This document shows positions 2,526-35,453 of a DNA stretch of 64,000 nucleotides, in pieces. The stretch comes from Escherichia phage vB_EcoM_ESCO49: sequence record OM386663.1; one strand, given 5' to 3'. Numbering within the stretch: the stretch's first letter is position 1; every line of letters starts with the position of its first letter. Below the pieces are notes generated by a model. The model saw nothing but the letters and a program-made list of their open reading frames with translations. It did not search any database and was not told where the DNA came from. The position numbers were made by a program, and so were the translations under genes.

Positions 2526-2601
2526 TGGAGAATCCGAAGGGACTTGAACCCTTATAAACCTGTTTTGCAGACAGGCACATATCCATTTCTGTCACGGATT
2601 C
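2526..2601 (-). tRNA. tRNA-Cys (anticodon GCA)
   Basis: CCA encoded; perfect 7-bp acceptor (2530-2536 with 2595-2601); T-arm AAGGG/ACTTGAA/CCCTT; anticodon stem CCTGT/ACAGG, loop reads CUGCAAA. Confidence 0.75.
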
Positions 2602-2606
2602 GAAAT

Positions 2607-2697
2607 TGGGGGAAGATACCAGACTTGAACTGGTACACCGATTTCTCAGCTACTGGCAGTTTAGCAAACTGCTCCCTTACCTTTAGGGTTAATCTTC
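2607..2697 (-). tRNA. tRNA-Ser (anticodon GCU), type II
   Basis: Perfect acceptor (2611-2617 with 2691-2697); T-arm ACCAG/ACTTGAA/CTGGT; 21-nt variable arm; anticodon loop UUGCUAA. Confidence 0.7.
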
Positions 2698-2699
2698 CA

Positions 2700-3434
2700 T
2701 TATCTCTGTAATGCGCTCTTCATTTCTGGTGTTGCAATAGTATCAATCACACCAGTTTTACAAGCATCATCAAACCAGTCTGGTAAGATACCTGCTAAGA
2801 ACCCATTGATATTCGTTTTAAGGTACTCTGCAATAAGGGCAGCTTCTTCTTCAATCATCTGCACAACTTCATCTGCATAAGCTGTAATCTTTGAGATACC
2901 TTCATTAATCTTACTAACAGCCTGATTAGCTAAATCAGAAACAGTCTCAAGACCCTTATCAATAGCGTCTTGTAAGTCACTTAACACACCATTAACACTG
3001 TCTAGTGTGCTGTTAATCATGTCAATAGCTTGCTGACCATACTCTGTAGCAACACCCATAATACCACTAAATGGTGTACAACCAACTTGTTCTCCTGCTG
3101 CACCCATAACATTGGAGTATCCCTTTGCTACCTGCATACGTGATGAAAACTCATCAATAGACTTTTGACCGTAGTCTGTTAGGGTCTTAGTAGTTGCTGT
3201 AGTGCTTGTAAGGCTTGTTGTAAAGCTGTTTAGAAGGACTGTTGTGAGTCCAGCAGCAACAAGCTTCTCCTTCATTGTAGGGTCTGTTACAGAGCTAATA
3301 GAGCTTACAAGTGATGTAGAGGCAGCTACGGTTCCACCGAGAACTGCTGCACCAGTAATAAGTGGGTTAGAAAACCCTCTACCGGTTTTTAAGAGATTAA
3401 AAATCTCCTTACCTTGTTCTGTCATCTCTTTCAT
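2700..3434 (-). CDS. hypothetical protein (Ala/Ser/Thr/Gly-rich, about 244 aa)
   Basis: Track ORF 2700..3482 trimmed to the ATG at 3434..3432 because the upstream part overlaps a tRNA; low-complexity N-terminal half, helical C-terminal half. Confidence 0.4.
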   Translation of the reverse strand: MKEMTEQGKEIFNLLKTGRGFSNPLITGAAVLGGTVAASTSLVSSISSVTDPTMKEKLVAAGLTTVLLNSFTTSLTSTTATTKTLTDYGQKSIDEFSSRMQVAKGYSNVMGAAGEQVGCTPFSGIMGVATEYGQQAIDMINSTLDSVNGVLSDLQDAIDKGLETVSDLANQAVSKINEGISKITAYADEVVQMIEEEAALIAEYLKTNINGFLAGILPDWFDDACKTGVIDTIATPEMKSALQR

Positions 3435-3450
3435 TAAGCACCTTTGAAAT

Positions 3451-3521
3451 TGGTACTCCATATCGGATTCGAACCGATACATAACACAGATTTTAAGTCT
3501 GGCCTCTCTGCCAATTGGAGT
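3451..3521 (-). tRNA. compact tRNA, anticodon UAA (Leu by anticodon; atypical)
   Basis: CCA encoded; T-arm ATCGG/ATTCGAA/CCGAT; 6 of 7 acceptor pairs; short D-arm; 4-bp anticodon stem, loop CUUAAAA. Fold is non-canonical, so isotype is uncertain. Confidence 0.45.
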
Positions 3522-3531
3522 AATGGAGCAT

Positions 3532-3607
3532 TGGCTGGGGATGTTGGAATTGAACCAACTTCTTCGATTTCAAAGACCGAGGTTTTAACCTTGTAAACTA
3601 ATCCCCT
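3532..3607 (-). tRNA. tRNA-Gln (anticodon UUG)
   Basis: CCA encoded; T-arm GTTGG/AATTGAA/CCAAC; acceptor 3536-3542 with 3601-3607 (1:72 unpaired); anticodon loop CUUUGAA. Confidence 0.6.
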
Positions 3608-3615
3608 TTAAATCT

Positions 3616-4173
3616 TTACTTTCTCAGTGGATGAATAAAGAATGCCAACATAACTCTTTCCCTTGAGAATGCTCTTTCTTCTGGGACAACACTTTTTAGT
3701 TTCCATCCAATATAAATTCTCCAGTAAAACTGTTTACCAAAGATTTTAATTGATGGGATAAAAGCGAATAATCCCCAAGCATTGCTATTCCACATTAGGA
3801 GATAACCAGTCTGATTATCTTCAGGGTCAGAACTTACGCTGATATTACCTTTCCACTTAGTAACATCTTTTACATCTCTTCCTAATACATGGTAAGAGAA
3901 GTTATAAGCTTTGTTTCTCCAGAGCCATCCAACTCTCTGCATGTAGACACCCAGCTTACCAATCTTTCTAATCTTAGCCCATCTTTTAACGTGGCCTTCA
4001 TCACCATCAATCGGGTTGTCATAGGTCTCCATCCATCTGAATCCAAAAGGTAGATGCCCTTTCTTCTCACTGTAGAATGGAACCACGAAAGGTGCTAAGA
4101 TGACTGCTAGGGTTGCTGCAAATGGTTCTAGTAAAGCTAGGAAAATCCATGAAGCATACTTCAAATATCTCAT
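3616..4173 (-). CDS. hypothetical membrane protein embedded in the tRNA cluster
   Basis: 185-aa ORF with a hydrophobic N-terminal segment (WIFLALLEPFAATLAVILAPFVVPF); fills the gap between tRNAs without overlapping them. Confidence 0.35.
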   Translation of the reverse strand: MRYLKYASWIFLALLEPFAATLAVILAPFVVPFYSEKKGHLPFGFRWMETYDNPIDGDEGHVKRWAKIRKIGKLGVYMQRVGWLWRNKAYNFSYHVLGRDVKDVTKWKGNISVSSDPEDNQTGYLLMWNSNAWGLFAFIPSIKIFGKQFYWRIYIGWKLKSVVPEERAFSRERVMLAFFIHPLRK

Positions 4174-4192
4174 CTAAATAGCCTCTTAAAAT

Positions 4193-4270
4193 TGGTGTTC
4201 CAAGACGGATTCGAACCGTCACTAATACAAGGTTTGAGCTTGCATCCTCTGCCAATTGGGATACTGGAAC
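4193..4270 (-). tRNA. tRNA with anticodon CAA (Leu by anticodon; short variable arm)
   Basis: CCA encoded; T-arm GACGG/ATTCGAA/CCGTC; acceptor 4197-4203 with 4264-4270 (one G-U); anticodon stem 5 bp including G-U, loop CUCAAAC. Confidence 0.55.
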
Positions 4271-4271
4271 A

Positions 4272-4346
4272 TGGTACTCACTAAAGGACTTGAACCTTTT
4301 TCTTCATCTTGTAAGGGTGATGTTTTACCATATAAACTAAGCGAGT
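4272..4346 (-). tRNA. tRNA-Val (anticodon UAC)
   Basis: CCA encoded; T-arm AAAGG/ACTTGAA/CCTTT; acceptor with one mismatch; anticodon loop CUUACAA. Confidence 0.6.
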
Positions 4347-4441
4347 GTGAAAGAGGTCTGAAGTTGTGCCGCTAACTCAACTCCGTGGAATTTGTTACGG
4401 TCTTCAGTTGACACCAGCGGTCTTTCACTTGACCTCTGAAT

Positions 4442-4518
4442 TGGTGCTGCTCACAGGACTCGAACCTGCATTTCCATCCTTACAAGGGATGTGTAATAGC
4501 CAATTATACGAAAGCAGC
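4442..4518 (-). tRNA. tRNA-Thr (anticodon UGU)
   Basis: CCA encoded; T-loop ACTCGAA; perfect anticodon stem CATCC/GGATG, loop CUUGUAA; acceptor 6 bp plus G-U. Confidence 0.7.
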
Positions 4519-4524
4519 ATTATT

Positions 4525-4599
4525 TGGAGCATCCAGAGGGAATCGAACCCTCAACCTCAGTTTGGAAGACTGTAATTTTCCCGTTTAAACTATGGATGC
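4525..4599 (-). tRNA. tRNA-Gly (anticodon UCC)
   Basis: CCA encoded; perfect acceptor (4529-4535 with 4593-4599); T-arm GAGGG/AATCGAA/CCCTC; anticodon loop CUUCCAA. Confidence 0.7.
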
Positions 4600-4605
4600 A
4601 CTAAT

Positions 4606-4681
4606 TGGTGGAGAAGCAGGGAATTGAACCCTGTACTTAAGTTTGCAAAACTTATGTTTTAACCATGTAAACTACATCCCC
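4606..4681 (-). tRNA. tRNA-Ala (anticodon UGC)
   Basis: CCA encoded; T-arm CAGGG/AATTGAA/CCCTG; D-stem GUUU/AAAC; perfect anticodon stem UAAGU/ACUUA, loop UUUGCAA. Confidence 0.7.
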
Positions 4682-4687
4682 AATGTT

Positions 4688-4763
4688 TGGTACAGGTGGA
4701 GGGAATTGAACCCATCGTCTTACTGATTAAGAGTCAGCCGCATAACCATTTTGCTACACCTGC
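4688..4763 (-). tRNA. tRNA-Lys (anticodon CUU)
   Basis: CCA encoded; acceptor GCAGGUG/CACCUGU with G1-U72; T-loop UUCAAUU; anticodon stem GCUGA/UCAGU, loop CUCUUAA. Confidence 0.6.
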
Positions 4764-4770
4764 ATTAATT

Positions 4771-4847
4771 TGGTACACCTAGAGAGATTCGAACTCACAC
4801 TGAGCAGATTCTAAGTCTGCTGCCTCTACCAGTTGGGCTATAGGTGC
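4771..4847 (-). tRNA. tRNA with anticodon UAG (Leu by anticodon; short variable arm)
   Basis: CCA encoded; T-arm GAGAG/ATTCGAA/CTCAC; perfect anticodon stem GCAGA/TCTGC, loop CUUAGAA; canonical D-loop AACUGGUAG; 5-nt variable region. Confidence 0.6.
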
Positions 4848-5102
4848 ATTAAACCTTTTTAGAGAACTTCTAAGAACCTAAGCAACAAGGTTCCACAACA
4901 AGCCGTAATAACCTTAGAAGCCCTCTAAAAAGACCTAAAAAGGTCTTTGCATAGTCTTGTTTAATCCGGTGACTAGAACCTTTGGAGAGCTTGATATTAT
5001 CTCTTCTCCGTGACACCTGCTAGGTGCTTTATGAGTGTGTACGACAATACACGCGGGATACCAAAGCAACACCCTAATGAAGCTTGGCTTTAAATCTTAT
5101 TA

Positions 5103-5192
5103 GGCGGTAAGTAAAGGAGTCGAACCCTCACCGTATCTCTACAGTGGCAACTGTTTTCAAGACAGTTTGGCTACCATTAGCCGCTACCTACC
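5103..5192 (-). tRNA. tRNA-Ser (anticodon UGA), type II
   Basis: Acceptor GGUAGGU/ACUUACC; 3-bp D-stem; perfect anticodon stem ACUGU/ACAGU, loop CUUGAAA; about 20-nt variable arm; T-loop UUCGACU; 3' end CC without the final A. Confidence 0.65.
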
Positions 5193-5205
5193 CCTAATAA
5201 GACTT

Positions 5206-5288
5206 TGGCATGGGACGGAGGAGTTGAACCCCTTTGAAACGGTGTTGGAAGCCGTTGCTCATGCCTTAGAGTCTTAACATCGTCCCAT
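5206..5288 (-). tRNA. tRNA, probably Trp (anticodon CCA), 80 nt with enlarged D region
   Basis: CCA encoded; perfect acceptor (5210-5216 with 5282-5288); T-loop AGTTGAA; best anticodon loop UUCCAAC; D region is about 7 nt longer than canonical. Confidence 0.45.
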
Positions 5289-5431
5289 ACTATAATTCGA
5301 AGCTTACCGTATTATCTCAACACTGTAAAGCCCCTTCTCAGATTATTTACATGTTCTGGAAAACATGAGATACAGACCACCTCCCTACAGGAAGACCCGC
5401 TTAGGTCGTCTAAGTAATCTGCTAACTAAAT

Positions 5432-5518
5432 TGGTCGAGGCGGCAGGACTCGAACCCGCATACTCCACTTACTCGGTTAACGTCTGTTTAGAAGACAGAT
5501 GAGATACGCCCCGTAATT
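5432..5518 (-). tRNA. atypical tRNA-like gene (anticodon-type loop UCU; canonical D-arm not foldable)
   Basis: CCA encoded; good acceptor CGGGGCG/CGCCUCG and T-arm GCGGG/UUCGAGU/CCUGC; perfect hairpin UCUGU/ACAGA with loop CUUCUAA; only 7 nt where the D-arm should be and 23 nt between that hairpin and the T-arm. Confidence 0.4.
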
Positions 5519-5850
5519 ATCTTTAAAGACTCTCTTAGAAAGCCCTTAAAGATGCCCACCTTATTAATCATACCGTGGGCTAGTACGCCAAATTCTTTGA
5601 TGAGGGATTGGAAGACCTCACTGGTGTTTAGCCTATCAAGCTACTGCCAGAAAAACATTGTCGTTTGCATTTATTTTAAATTTGCAAAATAGACGCTACG
5701 CAACGAAAACTATTCAGAATATGTACAACAAATTTCCCCACATTGTGTTACGTCTAACGCTCATGTATTGGTGTTTGAATTATACATATTATGAAGTATT
5801 TTAGTTACTATAAAGTGGTCACATCTCAATGTCAACAACTTTATTGAAAT

Positions 5851-5926
5851 TGGTACTGGTAGGTGGAATCGAACCACCGACGTTCCCTTATCAGGGGAGT
5901 GTTATAACCTTCTTAACTATACCAGC
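5851..5926 (-). tRNA. tRNA-Ile (anticodon GAU)
   Basis: CCA encoded; perfect T-arm GGTGG/AATCGAA/CCACC; acceptor with G1-U72; anticodon loop CUGAUAA. Confidence 0.65.
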
Positions 5927-5927
5927 T

Positions 5928-6004
5928 TGGAGGTTCAGATGGGAATCGAACCCACATTCATAGGGCTTATGAGACCCTTGCATTACCTTATCTGCGACTG
6001 AACC
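5928..6004 (-). tRNA. tRNA-Met (anticodon CAU; elongator-type, or Ile2 if lysidinylated)
   Basis: CCA encoded; perfect acceptor (5932-5938 with 5998-6004); T-loop AATCGAA; anticodon stem AGGGU/GCCCU, loop CUCAUAA. Confidence 0.65.
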
Positions 6005-6008
6005 ATTT

Positions 6009-6084
6009 TGGTAGAAGTGGAGGGACTCGAACCCATCGCCTGTCAGATTAAAAGTCTGCCACATCACTATTCTGCTACACTTCC
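6009..6084 (-). tRNA. tRNA-Lys (anticodon UUU)
   Basis: CCA encoded; T-loop ACTCGAA; acceptor with G1-U72; anticodon loop CUUUUAA. Confidence 0.6.
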
Positions 6085-6278
6085 ATTAAATTATCTTTGT
6101 AGATAAGCTACCCAGACTTGCTTAAGGTCTGTAGCGATGTGACTTTTTGGGTTTAAATCTAGAATTTACCCTTTCACCCTTTGTGGTCGCATACTCACAG
6201 GTAAGCTTAATAACTTATCTACAAAGATAATTACCAGACCATTGTTTATCATCTTAACTAGATATCTCATAAAGTGTT

Positions 6279-6366
6279 TGGTGTGCCGTGTAGGAGTCGA
6301 ACCTACCGAGTCTCAATGACAAGGGATTTACAGTCCCCACCGCTACCATCTACGGGATAACGACAC
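6279..6366 (-). tRNA. tRNA-Tyr (anticodon GUA), type II
   Basis: CCA encoded; perfect T-arm GTAGG/AGTCGAA/CCTAC; 3-bp D-stem; anticodon stem GGGGA/UCCCU, loop CUGUAAA; about 15-nt variable arm. Confidence 0.6.
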
Positions 6367-6435
6367 ATCTAATTTCTATTCAGGCTAAGGACTTGCACCT
6401 TACAAATCGGTGAGTAATCGCTTCTCTCCTAAATT

Positions 6436-6512
6436 TGGCGGTTAGTCAGGGATTCGAACCCTGTGCCATTCGCTTAACAGGCGACCGCACATACCTTATG
6501 TGCTTCCTAACC
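6436..6512 (-). tRNA. tRNA-Asn (anticodon GUU)
   Basis: CCA encoded; perfect T-arm CAGGG/ATTCGAA/CCCTG; acceptor 6 bp; anticodon stem UCGC/GCGA, loop CUGUUAA. Confidence 0.6.
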
Positions 6513-6597
6513 ATGTTTAGTATTACCAGACCGTATCTTTCAATTTTTTCTGCTAAAAATTTAATAAATATTGCTGTAAACGGTCTTCTGTAAAATT

Positions 6598-6674
6598 TGG
6601 AGGCGGGTGCAGGAGTCGAACCTGCCGATACCATGCTAATGAGACATGTGAGACGCCCTTTCTCTATACCCGCA
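6598..6674 (-). tRNA. second CAU-anticodon tRNA (Met, fMet or Ile2)
   Basis: CCA encoded; perfect T-arm GCAGG/AGTCGAA/CCTGC; acceptor 6 bp with 1:72 unpaired; anticodon stem CAUGU/GCAUG, loop CUCAUUA. Confidence 0.6.
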
Positions 6675-6804
6675 ATTCTTAATGACCAGACCAAATCTCT
6701 TCTTTGTCCGATTTACCTTCAGATGAATAAGATTAAGTTTGCTGTAATTGGTCTTCTGTCAAAACTGGCGTTCCAGAAGGGATTTGTCTACTGGAACATT
6801 AATT

Positions 6805-6881
6805 TGGTCTCTGTTGGAGGACTTGAACCTCCGGCCTTACCGCCCCAAACGGAACGCTCTACCAAGCTGAGCTAAACAGAG
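6805..6881 (-). tRNA. tRNA-Pro (anticodon UGG)
   Basis: CCA encoded; perfect acceptor (6809-6815 with 6875-6881); perfect T-arm GGAGG/ACTTGAA/CCTCC; anticodon loop UUUGGGG. Confidence 0.65.
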
Positions 6882-24159: not shown

Positions 24160-24370
24160 GACATCCCCACCTACACCCACCTACCTGCACAATTCTAAAA
24201 TGATTTTTCTTGCCCGACCTGATTTTTCTCTGCACGTTTTGAAAATGAAAAAGCTCTTTGGAGATTACCTGCACAGTTTGAAAATGAATTTTCTCTTTGG
24301 AGTTCAAGATTTTCTCTACAGATTTCTCTATAGAAATATACCTGCACAATTCTGAAATGAAAAAGCCCTC
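24160..24370. repeat. three direct repeats of about 22 bp, ACCTGCACA(A/G)TT(C/T)(T/G)AAAATGA
   Basis: Copies at about 24184-24205, 24271-24292 and 24342-24363 in an intergenic region; track ORFs here are repeat artefacts. Confidence 0.5.
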
Positions 24371-24434
24371 CTTACCTGAAAAAATCTACCAGATAAGAAA
24401 GGCTTAGTCTATTGTGAATATTATACAGAGTTTC

Positions 24435-25220
24435 TTAGTTCTTTGCGTCTAAGAAGGTTACTTCCGGTGAAGAGAAGACCGTCTCAATATCCTCATCAGT
24501 TCTTGCATAGATGTATGTATCTGCATCACTGCCAAATGTTACAGCTATCCTGTGATTGCTCTTCGACAGGTGGGTAACTAGAGCGTTACTTAGAGACATC
24601 TTTTCAACCGGAGGGTTACTTTGATGTATCTTACCTTTTCTTCGTCTGAAGAGGGTAACTGTATTGTCCGTGAACACAACTACACCTGCAAAGTATTCTG
24701 GTTCACAGTAGTTTTTCCAACCTGAGTGTAACTCGTTGTACATCTCTGTCTCGTAGACATACAGATAAACATCTACGCTCTTCATAACCTGATTGATGAT
24801 AACTGTGACAGCTTGAGGGTCCAGCCCACCGATACCTGCACCAATCATAGGTAGGCCAACCTTCTTCAACTGGTTAACTTCACAGTATCTGTTAAGTTGC
24901 TTCAAAGATGACTCTAAAGCACTGTATCGGGCGTCTTTACCAGTCTTAAGCTGAGTGTAAAGGTTAGCTATACGACCTTGTTTTAAACGTGCTACAGAGA
25001 AGTTACCCAGTAAATTTTCACAGGGTTTGTGGCCTATACCACCTGCATAGATGTAAACTTCTGTATCGGTCTCATATGCTTTTGGGTAAAGTTTAGAAAT
25101 CTTGTCAGCGATACCTGCACCCATTAAATTCATACAGTTGCAACCGTGACCAATGATGTCAAACTTACCTTTATCAAAGGCGTCAAAGATATCACCATTG
25201 ATGATTTTTACAATACCCAT
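24435..25220 (-). CDS. macro-domain protein (TARG1/DarG type, ADP-ribose binding or hydrolysing)
   Basis: 261 aa; N-terminal IINGDIFDAFDKGKFDIIGHGCNCMNLMGAGIADKISKLYP matches the NC..MGxGIA...YP pattern of TARG1/DarG-type macro domains (pattern recall, no alignment run). Confidence 0.5.
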   Translation of the reverse strand: MGIVKIINGDIFDAFDKGKFDIIGHGCNCMNLMGAGIADKISKLYPKAYETDTEVYIYAGGIGHKPCENLLGNFSVARLKQGRIANLYTQLKTGKDARYSALESSLKQLNRYCEVNQLKKVGLPMIGAGIGGLDPQAVTVIINQVMKSVDVYLYVYETEMYNELHSGWKNYCEPEYFAGVVVFTDNTVTLFRRRKGKIHQSNPPVEKMSLSNALVTHLSKSNHRIAVTFGSDADTYIYARTDEDIETVFSSPEVTFLDAKN

Positions 25221-25421
25221 TTAACATCTCTCCCAAGATTCTTTATCTTCTGAAGGCTTTACACGTTGCCCTTCGTGGTCTACCCAGATGCACCCACAGC
25301 CTTCACAGATTACTGGCATTGCATAACCAGCTTTAAAGTCATCTTCAGTGATAAGACCTTTTAAGTCACCTGTATCACGTCCAAACATTTCGATAGAACA
25401 GTCTTTGCAGAAGTCAGCCAT
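25221..25421 (-). CDS. small Cys-rich (zinc-binding-like) protein
   Basis: 66 aa with CxxC ... CEGCGC cysteine pairs. Confidence 0.4.
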   Translation of the reverse strand: MADFCKDCSIEMFGRDTGDLKGLITEDDFKAGYAMPVICEGCGCIWVDHEGQRVKPSEDKESWERC

Positions 25422-27267: not shown

Positions 27268-27963
27268 TCAATGTTTAACTAACATGGTTTTAATGTGTGG
27301 AAGGATTCTGTTTACCTTCTGCACATTCTTCTCTGTATCTTCTATAAAACATACTATATTAAAGTAAGGCAGAATGCAAGACTGAATCATCCTCACTTTC
27401 AAACTTTCTGCACTTATAGAGTTAGCCCCAAAACCACGCATAAAAAGCATGTAGTCATGCTCTATGTAATGCCTTAAAAACATCTCAGTAGGTATTCTCT
27501 GAGATTCACCCCTCGCTGTCAAGAGTCCAATGGCAGCATGGTTGGCAATTGCATCAATAATATTGAAAACATACGTTGGTTTTGCACTTACAGAGTCAAG
27601 CAAATTAGTGTACTGTGAAAATGAACCATCAATCAGTTCCGTTGAGCAATCTTCGTGATTAAAATTTGTAAGGACACCATCAATATCTGCTAAGATGAGG
27701 TTACCTTTTTCTACAAGGTCTTTATTGACTATGACTAAACTGTCACGTCTTACACCTATAGATTGCCCCGTCTCTTTATCCACAACGTTCACAATCGGTT
27801 CTGAAGTGTGGAACTCTTCAAGTGAACATACAACTTCTCTTGCAGTGTCTTCAAAATCCCTACACTGTTCTGGAGTCCATACACCGGAATCAAGACCTAA
27901 CTCATGAGGGTGTAAGTCATAAGCATGACACAGTACTTCATCAGACTTTCTTAATTTTTTCAT
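27268..27963 (-). CDS. HAD-superfamily phosphatase (possible 5'-deoxynucleotidase)
   Basis: 231 aa; HAD motif I ILADIDGVLTNF (DxDG). Confidence 0.5.
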   Translation of the reverse strand: MKKLRKSDEVLCHAYDLHPHELGLDSGVWTPEQCRDFEDTAREVVCSLEEFHTSEPIVNVVDKETGQSIGVRRDSLVIVNKDLVEKGNLILADIDGVLTNFNHEDCSTELIDGSFSQYTNLLDSVSAKPTYVFNIIDAIANHAAIGLLTARGESQRIPTEMFLRHYIEHDYMLFMRGFGANSISAESLKVRMIQSCILPYFNIVCFIEDTEKNVQKVNRILPHIKTMLVKH

Positions 27964-28489
27964 GGTTTACCTTAGAAATGTTTGTTGCAAATTCACATTG
28001 AGCAATAACTTTCATGTTGTTATAGACATCTTGAGAATATTTCTTAGCTTTAGGGATTCTGTACGAATACCCAGCATTATATGATGCTAAAACTTTTTGT
28101 AAAGTCTTCTTTGACTTTGGCTGACCATGCACCTTTGTCCAAAACTCAAGTTCTTTGTGCGTTTCCTTTGCAGCATAGTCAAAATCTTTTAAGAGTTTCT
28201 TTTTAGCCACATTAGGACTAATTTTGTTACGCTTTACAACAGTCTTCAAGTGATTCTGGAAAATACCATAGTCGTGGGTCTTTTTATTCTCTACCTTCAG
28301 ACCTAACTCTGACTCTTGTAAGGCTATAGCTGCTAGAGTAATACCCCAGCCTTTCCCCATATTATTCTCACCATACTGGTAAGCTTTTAACATGTTTACT
28401 TTTTGGCTAATTGATAGCTCTGGGCAGTCAACTGCATAAGATAAGTGTGCTGTAAACATTAAGCACAAACCTAGAATCAATTTCTTCAT
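27941..28489 (-). CDS. secreted lytic transglycosylase-like protein
   Basis: 182 aa; N-terminal signal peptide MKKLILGLCLMFTAHLSYA; ALQESELGL...YGIFQN resembles the SLT catalytic Glu and G(L/I)(M/F)Q motif. Confidence 0.45.
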   Translation of the reverse strand: MKKLILGLCLMFTAHLSYAVDCPELSISQKVNMLKAYQYGENNMGKGWGITLAAIALQESELGLKVENKKTHDYGIFQNHLKTVVKRNKISPNVAKKKLLKDFDYAAKETHKELEFWTKVHGQPKSKKTLQKVLASYNAGYSYRIPKAKKYSQDVYNNMKVIAQCEFATNISKVNHEKIKKV

Positions 28490-32720: not shown

Positions 32721-34502
32721 TTAAAGCTGCTTGTCAATAATATTTCGAATATCACCAAGAGTTGTGTAACCGAACTGCTCAGAGTCGCTAAAGACTAAAC
32801 GTAAAGCACAAGCTGGGTGGTCAAGTACGTCTGCAAAACTCTGGAATCCATAGCCATCTACAGCTTTCAGCTTATCACCATCCCACATAGGTGCTACACC
32901 ACCAAAGGCAGACTTCTTAACACCACTATCTGTTTTAGGGTCTTTTGCAAGCATAATCTCTTTACCACCAATGCTTGCAAGAGTTGCTTTGACAGCAAAT
33001 GCAAAGGTGTCACGAGTCATGTACTGGTAAGTGTAAGAGCCTACACCAAATACTACGTTAGAGCTTGCAAAACCCATTTCATACAGACGATTCAGGATTT
33101 CGTTTGCACGTTCCAGCGTGATAGAGTCACCATAGATAAGGCCGATGTGCTCATCCAGTACCTTAAACCCTTTAGAGTTAATAGTTCCCCCAAAGATGTT
33201 GTACAGTGTCTTAATAGCTCCATCAATTTCAGCTACAGGACGTGTTACAACATTTGCAGAACCAACCATATAAGCATTCTTCAACATCACCGTATCAGCA
33301 ACTTCAAAGTCTTCTCTGTCAACAACCATTTCGTAGCCTTCTGACAGTAGCCATCCAGCAATACCATAGTCGATGTTTTCAAGCTTCATGTTCAGAACAG
33401 CATTCAACATTGTGTCGCTGGCTTCCAGCTTGCTTAGGTGCTCGTAATAAGCCTTCTTAGCACATTCTAAGTGGATTGCTTTATAACCTGTGACAATATG
33501 TACAGGGTCTCCAGAGTCAGGACGAATTACCAGTTTGCCATCACGTTCCATAATTTCTTTACGAAGTGCTGGTAAAATTTCTGACACAGCTCTCCAGAAG
33601 TTATAAGTGTCTGAAACAATACTTGCAATACCAGTTGGGTAAGTTTCTGTTAAGAAACGACGGAAGGTTTGCAACTCACCTTTAAATCGTCTTTCTTCTT
33701 CAACCAACTCGTTACCACCTTCCCAAGCAATGTTTGCACACATTACAGAGTGTTCAGTGGCTGGTACAGAGCTTCCAATATCAGAGATTGGATAGGTCTG
33801 CCCATAGATACGTTTAGCCGTGTATACAGCAGGGAAGCTATCAGTCCCTTTAAAGCTGGTTAAGTGGCCTACAGCATTGAATGCGTCATCAGTAAAGCCT
33901 GACATACCACGCATAGCAAAGTCATGGCACTGATAAGGTAAATGCAAGTCATTGTCGCAAGTAAGGTCAGCCCACTTCTTACAGATACGTTTGTAGTGTA
34001 ATGCAATAGTAGCAATGGTGCAAGCTTTCCAAATCTCAGCAGAGAAAGCATCCTCCAGATACCCTGCTACCCAATGGAAACCTGAAACAGTGTTCTGGAA
34101 GACAATCATTGGGACACGCATCGGGACAACTGTGCCTTCTTCTACAGCGTATACTTCAACCGGTAGATAACCTAAGTCGTGAAGTGCTTCCCAATGCTCT
34201 CGACCGATAGCATCTTTACCCAGAACACCATTCATGACTTCTAAGATTTCGTCAACTGCTTCTTTTTTATCACGTTCAAAGAAAGTGGCGTTCCAGTGGT
34301 CTATTAAGTAATCTTTAACAAAACGTTGAATACCAAAAGCCACTACACCATCAATTGCTAAGGGGCTGTTAAACCATTTATCACTACGTGGTGTCAGGTT
34401 GAACATCAAGTATTCTGTTGCACTAGGGTACTGGTAAACATGACCAGATTTGTAAGCATCTGCGTTTAAACCTGCTGGTACTGCATAAAGTGATTTAGTC
34501 AT
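32721..34502 (-). CDS. nicotinamide phosphoribosyltransferase-family protein (NadV or Namat-like)
   Basis: 593 aa; NAMPT-like N-terminus (DAYKSGHVYQYP) and full NAMPT length; directly downstream of a Prs-like gene. Confidence 0.7.
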   Translation of the reverse strand: MTKSLYAVPAGLNADAYKSGHVYQYPSATEYLMFNLTPRSDKWFNSPLAIDGVVAFGIQRFVKDYLIDHWNATFFERDKKEAVDEILEVMNGVLGKDAIGREHWEALHDLGYLPVEVYAVEEGTVVPMRVPMIVFQNTVSGFHWVAGYLEDAFSAEIWKACTIATIALHYKRICKKWADLTCDNDLHLPYQCHDFAMRGMSGFTDDAFNAVGHLTSFKGTDSFPAVYTAKRIYGQTYPISDIGSSVPATEHSVMCANIAWEGGNELVEEERRFKGELQTFRRFLTETYPTGIASIVSDTYNFWRAVSEILPALRKEIMERDGKLVIRPDSGDPVHIVTGYKAIHLECAKKAYYEHLSKLEASDTMLNAVLNMKLENIDYGIAGWLLSEGYEMVVDREDFEVADTVMLKNAYMVGSANVVTRPVAEIDGAIKTLYNIFGGTINSKGFKVLDEHIGLIYGDSITLERANEILNRLYEMGFASSNVVFGVGSYTYQYMTRDTFAFAVKATLASIGGKEIMLAKDPKTDSGVKKSAFGGVAPMWDGDKLKAVDGYGFQSFADVLDHPACALRLVFSDSEQFGYTTLGDIRNIIDKQL

Positions 34503-34547
34503 CTTTTAATCTCTCTCAAAATGGGGTTTTTAAGCCCCTATAAAGTT

Positions 34548-35453
34548 TTAATCAAGGTTTGCTACAGTAACTTGACCATAATGTGTTAAGCCACGGTCTT
34601 TAGCTTCCCCTAAAGAGTTTGTAGTGTAGATATGGTCAATGCCATTGTCAAGAAGGTTTTCAACATCTTTAGAGAAGATACCATGTGTTACATAAAGTTC
34701 CACACGTTTTGCACCTGCTTCACGAAGATGTTTCGCTGCTTCTATGAAGGTTCGACCACCATCACAAATATCATCAAGAATCATGACAGTTTTATCTGTC
34801 AAATCAACATCATCAAGGATTCGCATACCAGTTATTTCACCAGTCTTAAGGTTGCGTACTTTAGACATTGTGATATATGGTTTATCCACCTCTTTAGCAG
34901 TCTCTGCAATCTTCTTAGAAGCACCTGCATCTGGGGCTACTAAGTAATCAATCAGAGGGTCATTTGCATAGTGGACTGCAATCTCCTTTTGAGGAATACT
35001 TTGGAAGCAGTTGAAAAGGTTATCTGGAACGTAACTATGAGGGTCAACTGCACAGACTGCATCAAAACCCATTGCATTAACCTGTTGTGCAAACACTTTC
35101 AAAGCTGCTGCATCACCTTTAAACATGTGACGGTCGTAACGTGCATTTGGCAAATAGTAAAAGATAGCAGTCTTCATAGCAAACTTATGAGGTACTAAAT
35201 CATCAATTGCTTCTTTAGCAAGTGCCACAGCAAACAATGTGTCCTTGTCATAGCCTTTTACAATAATAACCACATTGTTGATGGATGATGCTGCATAAGC
35301 AGTAAAATCAACAAGCTCTTGTGAAAAGTGTCCACCAATCTCACCAGAAGGGAACTGGATGATGTTAAACTCTTCTTCATGAGACCCTTTTGTCGGTGAA
35401 TGAATTATAACACGAATCGATGTCTTCATAGTTTTCCCTCTCTTTATTCCCAA
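34548..35453 (-). CDS. ribose-phosphate pyrophosphokinase (Prs)-family protein (possible ADP-ribose pyrophosphokinase, Adps-like)
   Basis: 301 aa; phosphoribosyltransferase binding loop VMILDDICDGGRTF; Prs-like two-domain length. Confidence 0.65.
   Translation of the reverse strand: MGIKRGKTMKTSIRVIIHSPTKGSHEEEFNIIQFPSGEIGGHFSQELVDFTAYAASSINNVVIIVKGYDKDTLFAVALAKEAIDDLVPHKFAMKTAIFYYLPNARYDRHMFKGDAAALKVFAQQVNAMGFDAVCAVDPHSYVPDNLFNCFQSIPQKEIAVHYANDPLIDYLVAPDAGASKKIAETAKEVDKPYITMSKVRNLKTGEITGMRILDDVDLTDKTVMILDDICDGGRTFIEAAKHLREAGAKRVELYVTHGIFSKDVENLLDNGIDHIYTTNSLGEAKDRGLTHYGQVTVANLD

What the first reader, a model, noticed from the sequence alone, without database searches (positions are those of the whole stretch)
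24435..25220. Phage-encoded TARG1/DarG-type macro domain: possible reversal of ADP-ribosylation
The N-terminal 140 aa carry the NC..MGxGIA...YP signature of TARG1/DarG-type macro domains, which remove ADP-ribose from protein or DNA. A free-standing copy in a phage early region is a candidate counter-measure to ADP-ribosylating defences such as DarT, and fits the nearby NAD+/ADP-ribose genes. The C-terminal 120 aa are unassigned.
Basis: partly seen in the sequence, partly recalled or inferred. Interest (0 to 1): 0.65.

Follow-up and report, generated by a model that had tools for sequence, protein, structure and literature searches.

The report
Felix O1-type phage ADP-ribose-removing macrodomain protein

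Summary
The ORF at 24435-25220 (minus strand, 261 aa) is real. It is the ortholog of Felix O1 ORF13, in a Felixounavirus window. Residues 1-157 form a confidently predicted macrodomain (Pfam Macro above threshold; AF2 pLDDT 91.5). The best structural matches are TARG1, DarG, Poa1p and BT1257. Its closest characterised relative is T4 Tk.4 (35% identity, E 2e-23), named AdfM in a 2025 preprint after its knockout made T4 sensitive to DarTG2. The DarG/TARG1 catalytic lysine is absent. An invariant Gln (Q90, motif NLYTQ) takes its place, as in T4 Tk.4 and in Streptomyces SCO6735. SCO6735 removes ADP-ribose from thymidine in DNA and needs its Gln to do so. The most likely function is therefore anti-DarT2 de-ADP-ribosylation of phage DNA, inferred and not tested here. 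Residues 158-261 form a well-predicted beta-rich domain found only in Ounavirinae-like phages. It diverges about twice as fast as the macrodomain and matches no sequence family or solved fold. The NARP1 NAD+-rebuilding genes lie 7.5 kb away in a separate transcription unit. In some Vibrio phages and viral contigs, a macro gene of this family sits between the two NARP1 genes, which hints at a link. Verdict: a new member of a known kind, of modest interest.

The parts
24435..25220 (-). Whole CDS (261 aa plus stop). Ortholog of Felix O1 ORF13 / Felix01p025. GenBank relatives are annotated 'phosphatase', 'O-acetyl-ADP-ribose deacetylase' or 'macro domain-containing protein'.
   Evidence: phrog_335 E 4e-113
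24750..25220 (-). Macrodomain, aa 1-157, ALC1-like class, T4 Tk.4/AdfM family
   Evidence: Pfam Macro. BLASTP to T4 Tk.4: 35% identity, E 2e-23. AF2 plus Foldseek: TARG1 TMt 0.82-0.87, Taq DarG 0.81, BT1257 0.82, Poa1p 0.77. Family profile against PDB sequences: 1e-14 to 2e-17.
25134..25148 (-). H25-G-C-N28-C29. N28 aligns with DarG N22 and SCO6735 N27, the Asn that positions the catalytic residue. H25, G26, N28 and C29 are invariant in 27 homologs.
   Evidence: role of the Asn from PMC9411070
25107..25124 (-). M33-G-A-G-I-A38, the glycine-rich ADP-ribose-binding loop of macrodomains
24951..24965 (-). N86-L-Y-T-Q90. Q90 occupies the position of DarG K80, TARG1 K84 and SCO6735 Q85. N86, T89 and Q90 are invariant in the family.
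   Evidence: TARG1 alignment; profile alignments to Mtb DarG (NFPTK), SCO6735 (NMIGQ) and BT1257 (NMIGQ); invariance; Gln also present in the Vibrio-phage and IMG/VR homologs
24825..24851 (-). P124-M-I-G-A-G-I-G-G132, the second glycine-rich (phosphate-binding) loop. G131 stands where TARG1 D125 stands.
24438..24749 (-). C-terminal domain, aa 158-261: one helix, six beta strands, one helix. Restricted to Ounavirinae-like phages, fast-evolving, with no family or fold assignment.
25230..25234 (-). Shine-Dalgarno GGGAG, 9 nt upstream of the ATG and inside the end of the upstream 66-aa ORF
   Evidence: read
24353..24405 (-). Intrinsic terminator just after the stop codon: 17-bp stem followed by UUUUUCAUUU. 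The macro gene is the last gene of its transcription unit.
   Evidence: MFE -25.8 kcal/mol, z -3.0

Best explanation
The gene encodes a two-domain early protein of a Felix O1-like phage. The N-terminal domain is a catalytically competent macrodomain of the T4 Tk.4/AdfM family. It binds ADP-ribose in the cleft formed by the HGCNC, MGAGIA and PMIGAGIGG loops. It most likely cleaves the bond between ADP-ribose and a thymine base in single-stranded phage DNA, releasing free ADP-ribose. This would undo the modification written by DarT2-type toxins and let replication proceed. The chemistry would be the Gln-type variant described for SCO6735, in which Q90, held by N28, positions the distal ribose and a water molecule is the nucleophile. 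It would not be the lysine mechanism of DarG and TARG1. The C-terminal domain is a lineage-specific accessory module of unknown role. What is shown here: the fold, family membership, active-site residues, domain limits and gene context. What is inferred: the substrate (ADP-ribosylated DNA), the anti-DarT2 role and the catalytic mechanism.
For: Macro fold at high confidence, with TARG1, DarG, Poa1p and BT1257 as the best structural matches. 35% identity and E 2e-23 to T4 Tk.4 over the whole macrodomain, with a shared NLYTQ motif. T4 tk.4 was the single hit in a transposon screen against DarTG2, and its clean knockout sensitised T4; the authors named it AdfM. A Lys-type phage macrodomain, PhiKZ AdfM, removes DarT2 ADP-ribose from DNA in vitro. 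SCO6735 has Gln at the same position as Q90, hydrolyses thymidine-linked ADP-ribose on DNA, is dead as Q85A and nearly dead as N27S. N28, Q90 and the glycine loops are invariant across 27 homologs down to 30% identity, which argues for a working active site. The gene stands alone, has its own SD sequence and terminator, and lies in the minus-strand block that also holds rIIA/rIIB and NARP1.
Against: No Ounavirinae macro protein has been assayed, and I found no report of DarTG2 tested on these phages. The T4 result is genetic and comes from a preprint, with no biochemistry on a Gln-type phage enzyme. At 35% identity to Tk.4, substrate specificity may differ. Poa1p (a small-molecule ADP-ribose-1''-phosphatase) and TARG1 (a protein de-ADP-ribosylase) are about as close in sequence and structure as DarG and SCO6735. 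SCO6735 itself also acts on protein substrates. The C-terminal domain is unexplained.
Confidence: 0.5

Rival explanations
1. Helper of NAD+ reconstitution. The macrodomain would act on small ADP-ribose derivatives: ADP-ribose-1''-phosphate (and through it the ADPR-cyclic-phosphate that forms from ADPR-PP), O-acetyl-ADP-ribose, or defence signalling molecules built on ADP-ribose. It would return free ADP-ribose to the phage's NARP1 pathway (Adps plus Namat), which rebuilds NAD+.
For: Poa1p, an ADP-ribose-1''-phosphatase, is among the closest solved relatives (profile E 1e-16; TMt 0.77). The window carries NARP1 at 32721-35453 on the same strand, the pathway shown experimentally in the Felixounavirus Bas63. 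ADPR-cyclic-phosphate does accumulate as a breakdown product of ADPR-PP in Bas63 infection. In Vibrio phages Achelous and Ceto and in IMG/VR contigs L061/L062 and L064, a Gln-type macro gene of this family lies between Adps and Namat. In Achelous and Ceto its start overlaps the Adps stop. These macro proteins are only 26-50% identical to each other.
Against: Only 5 of 54 non-Ounavirinae NARP1 loci have such a macro gene within 10 kb, which is close to what a common myovirus gene would give by chance. In the window the two are 7.5 kb apart, with terminators between them. T4 has Tk.4 but one search shows no Adps or Namat gene beside it. Poa1p has Ser, not Gln, at the key position. No cyclic phosphodiesterase was identified here to open ADPR-cP.
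Confidence: 0.2
2. Eraser of ADP-ribose on protein or RNA rather than DNA. The enzyme would counter other ADP-ribosyltransferase defences or toxins (for example mRNA- or protein-modifying ARTs), or reverse modifications made during infection.
For: TARG1, a protein de-ADP-ribosylase, is the top sequence and structure match to the single protein. SCO6735 also removes ADP-ribose from auto-modified PARP1. Macrodomains are present in about 41% of myoviruses, more widely than any one defence would predict (PMC9503650).
Against: The TARG1 Lys/Asp dyad used for ester-linked protein substrates is absent. No ART, RNA ligase or Tpt1 is annotated in Felix O1, so a role in reversing the phage's own modification has no support. 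The only genetic phenotype known for this family is against DarTG2.
Confidence: 0.2
3. Non-catalytic ADP-ribose binder. The macrodomain would only bind ADP-ribose or a derivative, acting as a sponge or sensor, and the C-terminal domain would carry the real effector or partner-binding function.
For: The classical catalytic lysine is missing. The two domains are predicted as one rigid unit (pTM 0.89).
Against: The Gln plus Asn pair needed for catalysis in SCO6735 is invariant in the family. Macro-only members such as T4 Tk.4 give a phenotype without any C-terminal domain.
Confidence: 0.07

Closest known systems
T4 Tk.4 = AdfM (anti-DarT factor macrodomain), bioRxiv 10.1101/2025.11.20.689424
   Same: Same sequence family: 35% identity and E 2e-23 across the whole macrodomain. 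Same HGCNC, MGxG, NLYTQ and IGAGIG motifs. A free-standing early phage gene.
   Different: Tk.4 is 155 aa and consists of the macrodomain only. The window protein carries an extra 104-aa C-terminal domain. Function has been shown genetically for T4 only.
Streptomyces coelicolor SCO6735 (PDB 5E3B) and Bacteroides BT1257 (2FG1), Gln-type ALC1-like macrodomains
   Same: Gln at the position of the DarG/TARG1 catalytic Lys, plus the conserved Asn. Profile E 1.3e-16 and 2e-17. SCO6735 cleaves thymidine-linked ADP-ribose on DNA.
   Different: These are cellular proteins. Their motif is NMIGQHG rather than NLYTQ, and SCO6735 has a longer mobile loop. They have no C-terminal domain of the phage type.
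DarG antitoxin of DarTG2 (Taq 5M31/5M3E, Mtb 5M3I) and chimallivirus AdfM (PhiKZ gp104)
   Same: Macro fold (TMt 0.79-0.81). The expected substrate is ADP-ribosyl-thymidine in ssDNA. The two-part layout of macrodomain plus a second domain superficially resembles DarG.
Human TARG1/OARD1 (4J5Q/R/S) and yeast Poa1p (6LFQ)
   Same: Best single-sequence and Foldseek matches, and the same ALC1-like/Poa1p-like class.
   Different: TARG1 K84 and D125 correspond to Q90 and G131 here. Poa1p has Ser at the Gln position.

Membership tests
Macrodomain superfamily (Pfam PF01661) | Sequence match above Pfam's gathering threshold | tested here: met
   32.6 bits against a cut-off of 22, E 8.7e-8, aa 25-141, profile positions 2-117 of 118
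Macrodomain superfamily (Pfam PF01661) | Three-layer alpha/beta macro fold with glycine-rich ADP-ribose-binding loops | tested here: met
   AF2 pLDDT 91.5. 240 PDB macrodomain chains at Foldseek E <= 1e-3, with TMt up to 0.87. MGAGIA and IGAGIGG loops conserved.
ALC1-like class (TARG1, DarG, SCO6735, Poa1p-like) | Closest sequence and structure relatives fall in this class rather than among MacroD-type or PARG-type domains | tested here: met
   The top 13 Foldseek hits are TARG1, DarG and Poa1p. The profile hits at 1e-14 to 2e-17 are BT1257, Poa1p, SCO6735, DarG and TARG1 only.
DarG/TARG1 lysine-type hydrolases | Catalytic lysine (DarG K80 / TARG1 K84) | tested here: not met
   Q90 aligns with TARG1 K84 and Mtb DarG K80 (NLYTQ against NFPTK). 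Gln is invariant in the family.
DarG/TARG1 lysine-type hydrolases | TARG1 Asp125 partner of the dyad | tested here: not met
   G131 aligns with D125. DarG and SCO6735 also lack this Asp (PMC9411070).
DarG antitoxin of a DarTG2 system (NCBIfam NF048014 equivalog) | Full-length match above the curated cut-off, including the DarT-binding C-terminal domain | tested here: not met
   48.4 bits against a cut-off of 250. The match covers protein aa 6-161 on profile positions 3-151 of 338. PADLOC DarG likewise matches aa 20-160 only.
DarG antitoxin of a DarTG2 system (NCBIfam NF048014 equivalog) | Adjacent darT toxin gene | tested here: not met
   The neighbouring ORFs are small phage proteins of unknown function (PHROGs) with no Pfam domain. 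Relatives have no darT annotated.
Gln-type ALC1-like macrodomains (SCO6735/BT1257 type) | Gln at the catalytic-Lys position, plus the Asn that locks it | tested here: met
   Q90 aligns with SCO6735 Q85 and N28 with N27 in the profile alignment. The roles of these residues are from PMC9411070.
AdfM (T4 Tk.4-type anti-DarT factor) | Homology to T4 Tk.4 across the macrodomain | tested here: met
   35% identity, E 2e-23, aa 3-157 against 2-152. tblastn hits tk.4 genes of many T4-like phages at about 34% identity.
AdfM (T4 Tk.4-type anti-DarT factor) | Protects the phage from DarTG2 and removes ADP-ribose from DarT2-modified DNA | not testable with these tools
   This needs plaque assays on DarTG2 hosts and in vitro de-ADP-ribosylation. 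No published test on Ounavirinae was found.
NARP1 operon accessory gene | Conserved operonic linkage with Adps and Namat | tested here: inconclusive
   The macro gene is embedded between Adps and Namat in Achelous, Ceto, L061/L062 and L064. However, only 5 of 54 diverse NARP1 loci have it within 10 kb. In the window it lies 7.5 kb away in a different transcription unit.

The most novel reading that the evidence does not exclude
The Ounavirinae protein may be more than a plain Tk.4-type eraser. Its fast-evolving, fold-orphan C-terminal domain could be a specificity module that binds a variable host factor. That factor could be the ADP-ribosylating toxin itself, by analogy with DarG's second domain but not homologous to it. 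The ADP-ribose released by the macrodomain could also be fed to the phage's own NARP1 enzymes. Together, macro and NARP1 would then form a 'repair and recycle' circuit: the modification is removed from DNA and the spent NAD+ is rebuilt. The embedding of a macro gene of this family between the NARP1 genes in some Vibrio phages and viral contigs would be the genomic trace of that coupling.
Probability: 0.15. Interest if true: 0.65.

Novelty: new member of a known kind. Interest (0 to 1): 0.35.

Why it matters
If the protein does erase DarT2 marks, the roughly 250 sequenced Felix O1-like phages carry a ready-made anti-DarTG2 factor. Many of these phages are candidates for Salmonella and E. coli biocontrol, so this bears on host-range prediction. 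It would also be a second phage lineage, after the T-even phages, that uses the Gln-type chemistry so far characterised only in SCO6735. The unassigned C-terminal domain and the occasional insertion of a macro gene inside NARP1 operons are small, testable leads. They bear on how phages combine removal of ADP-ribose marks with NAD+ rebuilding. None of this changes current concepts: the macrodomain has been annotated in these genomes for years, and the anti-DarT role of phage macrodomains was published in 2025-2026.

Tried and rejected
1. DarG membership was rejected. The score is far below the NCBIfam cut-off, the catalytic Lys is absent, there is no DarT neighbour, and the C-terminus does not match.

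2. No identity could be found for the C-terminal domain.
- Pfam gave nothing.
- PHROGs matched only its own family, phrog_335.
- phmmer against 1.84 billion representatives found 2 close relatives.
- A profile search of 5.8 billion proteins returned one 54-aa fragment. It did not return even the proteins the profile was built from, so I treat it as uninformative.
- BFVD returned only the SUSP2 homolog.
- The afdb50 library was unavailable.

3. A nucleic-acid-binding role for the C-terminal domain, judged from charge, was rejected. Net charge ranges from -4 to +3 among homologs, and the RRRKGK patch is not conserved.

4. General macro-NARP1 linkage was tested on 80 IMG/VR Adps loci. It is not general: 5 of 54 loci outside the Ounavirinae.

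5. Reversal of the phage's own ADP-ribosylation, or clean-up after RNA repair, has no support. No ART, RNA ligase or Tpt1 is annotated in Felix O1. The 'polynucleotide kinase' neighbour shows only a weak HAD_PNKP match in relatives.

6. The PhageMaP Bas63 essentiality paper does not mention this gene.

Full report
**What the window is**

The region around the finding is 92-96% identical over about 4 kb to many Felixounavirus genomes, such as Escherichia phage vB_EcoM_ESCO50 and Salmonella phage HMD-P8. In all, 257 phage records match. The window also holds 19 tRNA genes, rIIA/rIIB-sized ORFs and the two NARP1-type genes. This is a Felix O1-like myovirus of the subfamily Ounavirinae.

**The observation**

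- An ORF of 261 aa lies exactly at 24435..25220, on the minus strand, with an ATG start.
- A GGGAG Shine-Dalgarno sequence lies 9 nt upstream of the ATG. The ATG abuts the stop codon of a 66-aa Cys-rich ORF.
- Immediately after the stop there is a 17-bp hairpin followed by a U-run. The gene therefore ends a minus-strand transcription unit.
- That unit appears to begin after the terminator-like hairpin at 26782-26765. It contains the spanin pair and four small ORFs of unknown function.

**It is a macrodomain**

- Pfam Macro is matched above its gathering score (32.6 bits against 22; E 8.7e-8; 116 of 118 profile positions).
- PADLOC DarG (2.2e-13) and NCBIfam DarG (7.6e-13) match the macro part only.
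- PHROGs places the whole protein in phrog_335, 'phosphatase' (4e-113).
- An AlphaFold2 model built on 27 homologs is confident throughout (mean pLDDT 91.5, pTM 0.89).
- Its best Foldseek matches among solved structures are human TARG1 (target-normalised TM 0.82-0.87), Thermus and Mycobacterium DarG macrodomains (0.79-0.81), BT1257 (0.82) and yeast Poa1p (0.77). Viral nsP3/Mac1 domains rank further down.

**Which family within that class**

- GenBank relatives already call the gene 'phosphatase', 'O-acetyl-ADP-ribose deacetylase' or 'macro domain-containing protein'.
- Felix O1 ORF13 carries the old note 'hypothetical 17.5 kD protein in tk-vs intergenic region', which marks it as a homolog of T4 Tk.4.
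- I fetched T4 tk.4 and compared the two proteins directly: 35% identity, E 2e-23, across the whole macrodomain.
- A tblastn of the macrodomain finds 2855 phage records, including tk.4 genes of many T4-like phages at about 34% identity.

**The active site**

- In alignments of 27 and 14 homologs, the invariant residues include H25, G26, N28, C29, G36, A38, P46, G72, N86, T89, Q90, P124, G127 and G129.
- The phmmer alignment to TARG1 puts Q90 opposite K84 and G131 opposite D125.
- A family profile aligned to PDB sequences puts NLYTQ opposite Mtb DarG NFPTK (K80), SCO6735 NMIGQ (Q85), BT1257 NMIGQ and Poa1p CLFTS.
- The lysine that DarG and TARG1 use is therefore absent. A strictly conserved glutamine takes its place, and T4 Tk.4 has the same NLYTQ.
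- The SCO6735 study gives the context (PMC9411070):
  - Gln85 is the structural equivalent of DarG K80 and TARG1 K84.
  - SCO6735 removes thymidine-linked ADP-ribose from DNA.
  - Q85A is inactive, and N27S (the equivalent of N28 here) is almost inactive.
  - The authors propose a water-mediated mechanism in which Gln positions the substrate.
It does not refute the function, because a Gln-type branch with the same activity exists.

**Function, by inference**

- A 2025 preprint reports that tk.4 was the single significant hit when a T4 transposon library was challenged with DarTG2, and that a clean tk.4 knockout became DarTG2-sensitive. The authors named it AdfM.
- A 2026 paper shows that a Lys-type macrodomain of chimalliviruses (PhiKZ gp104, also named AdfM) removes DarT2-made ADP-ribose from DNA and is needed to resist DarTG2.
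- Together with SCO6735, this makes de-ADP-ribosylation of thymine in phage ssDNA the best-supported function for the window protein. I give it 0.5.
- That figure reflects several gaps. Nothing has been tested in Ounavirinae. Identity to Tk.4 is only 35%. Poa1p and TARG1 are about as close as DarG and SCO6735.

**The C-terminal domain (aa 158-261)**

- It is predicted with confidence in the full-length model and with moderate confidence alone (pLDDT 78). The layout is one helix, six strands and one helix.
- It has no Pfam match.
- phmmer against 1.84 billion representatives finds only two close relatives.
- tblastn finds it in 246 phage records. Nearly all are Felixounavirus-type Escherichia, Salmonella, Shigella and Citrobacter phages. 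At 46-53% identity it also matches Citrobacter phage Maleficent, Shigella phages KPS64 and Sf13, and phiSUSP1.
- More distant two-domain homologs (33% identity overall) sit in metagenomic contigs with the same gene order: Namat, rIIA-sized ORF, rIIB, an SLT-domain protein, HAD_PNKP, macro. The fusion is therefore old within this phage group.
- The domain keeps only 15-23% identity where the macro part keeps 39-52%. Its net charge varies from -4 to +3.
- I therefore see no basis for a nucleic-acid-binding assignment. Fast divergence is compatible with a partner-binding role, but that is speculation.

**The NAD+ genes**

- ORFs at 34548-35453 and 32721-34502 carry the Prs-like and NAPRTase/NAMPT domains.
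- They correspond to the Adps and Namat genes (genes 79-80) of Bas63, the Felixounavirus in which NARP1 was discovered.
- They lie 7.5-10 kb upstream of the macro gene, on the same strand but in a different transcription unit.
- Vibrio phages Achelous and Ceto have a macro gene of this family between Adps and Namat, with its start overlapping the Adps stop. Those macro proteins are Gln-type (NVYGQ).
- To see whether this is general, I fetched 80 IMG/VR loci around Adps homologs and searched them for Namat and the macro profile:
  - All 19 of the 26 Ounavirinae loci that extended far enough contained the macro gene at about +9.5 kb.
  - Of 54 other loci, only 5 had one within 10 kb. Three of these were sandwiched in the operon (L061 and L062, which are identical, and L064).
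  - The sandwiched macro proteins are 26-50% identical to one another and all carry the Gln.
- Linkage with NARP1 is therefore real in a few lineages but not general. It supports a minority rival hypothesis (0.2): the enzyme supplies free ADP-ribose to NARP1, or recovers it from ADPR-1''-phosphate derived from the ADPR-cyclic-phosphate side product.
- The papers on NARP1, Namat and NARP3 that I read do not mention a macrodomain.

**Other rivals**

- Erasing ADP-ribose from protein or RNA is possible (0.2). SCO6735 is dual-specific and TARG1 is the top match. However, the TARG1 dyad is missing, and Felix O1 has no annotated ADP-ribosyltransferase, RNA ligase or Tpt1.
- A purely binding, non-catalytic role is unlikely (0.07), because the Gln and Asn residues are invariant.

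**Comparison and novelty**

The protein works like, and by homology belongs with, the Tk.4/AdfM family of phage macrodomains. Chemically it belongs with the Gln-type SCO6735 group. It is not a DarG: it falls below the cut-off, lacks the Lys, has no DarT neighbour and has an unrelated C-terminus. The macrodomain has long been annotated in these genomes. The anti-DarT role of phage macrodomains was published in 2025-2026, and macrodomains are known to occur in about 41% of myoviruses. What is not described in the sources I could read is the Ounavirinae-specific C-terminal domain and the occasional embedding of this macro family inside NARP1 operons. I rate the finding a new member of a known kind, with interest 0.35.

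Noticed in passing
window 24185-24360 (minus strand): Four tandem copies of TCATTTYNRAAHYGTGCAG lie in the 500-bp non-coding stretch downstream of the macro gene. They occur nowhere else in the 64 kb (0.02 expected by chance). They sit between the macro terminator and a sigma70-like promoter, TTGACT-17-TAGTAT, at 24005-23977. They could be binding sites or tandem phage promoters; their function is unknown.
   Followed up: partly
window 25221-25421 (minus strand): A 66-aa Cys-rich ORF (CxxC ... CxxCxC, zinc-ribbon-like) has its stop codon directly against the macro start codon. It belongs to phrog_2210 (unknown function) and has no Pfam hit. Whether it co-occurs with the macro gene outside the Ounavirinae was not examined.
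   Followed up: no
L004 4129-7135 (Vibrio phage Achelous), L005 4135-7149 (Vibrio phage Ceto), L061 6178-9241, L064 9920-12821: A Gln-type macro gene of the same family sits between the two NARP1 genes (Adps and Namat). In Achelous and Ceto its start overlaps the Adps stop. The embedded macro proteins are only 26-50% identical to one another. The NARP1, Namat and NARP3 papers I read do not mention this.
   Followed up: partly
window 32721-35453 (minus strand); L001 14656-17833: The NARP1 genes Adps and Namat are adjacent in the window. In ESCO50 and Felix O1 an HNH homing endonuclease gene is inserted between them. The Ounavirinae IMG/VR loci show both states, with Namat starting about 50 nt or about 500 nt after Adps.
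   Followed up: partly
window 27941-28489 (minus strand) and Felix O1 ORF3: A homolog of T4 Vs.1 ('20.7 kD protein in vs-regB region', SLT-like) lies about 3 kb from the Tk.4 homolog. In T4, tk.4, vs and vs.1 are adjacent. This may be a remnant of shared gene order between T4-like and Felix O1-like early regions.
   Followed up: no
hits H50 (Microbacterium phage Pumpernickel) and H63 (Big4); protein P0026: Other architectures occur in this macro family. In Microbacterium phages the macro match lies inside a gene annotated as ADP-ribosyltransferase. A 339-aa metagenomic protein combines the macrodomain with Pfam PF20274.
   Followed up: no
window 2526-6881 (minus strand): A cluster of 19 tRNA genes, typical of Felix O1-like phages.
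   Followed up: no
(tool behaviour): The profile search with the C-terminal alignment A2 returned only a 54-aa fragment. It did not return the full-length proteins the profile was built from, so this negative result should not be relied on.
   Followed up: no
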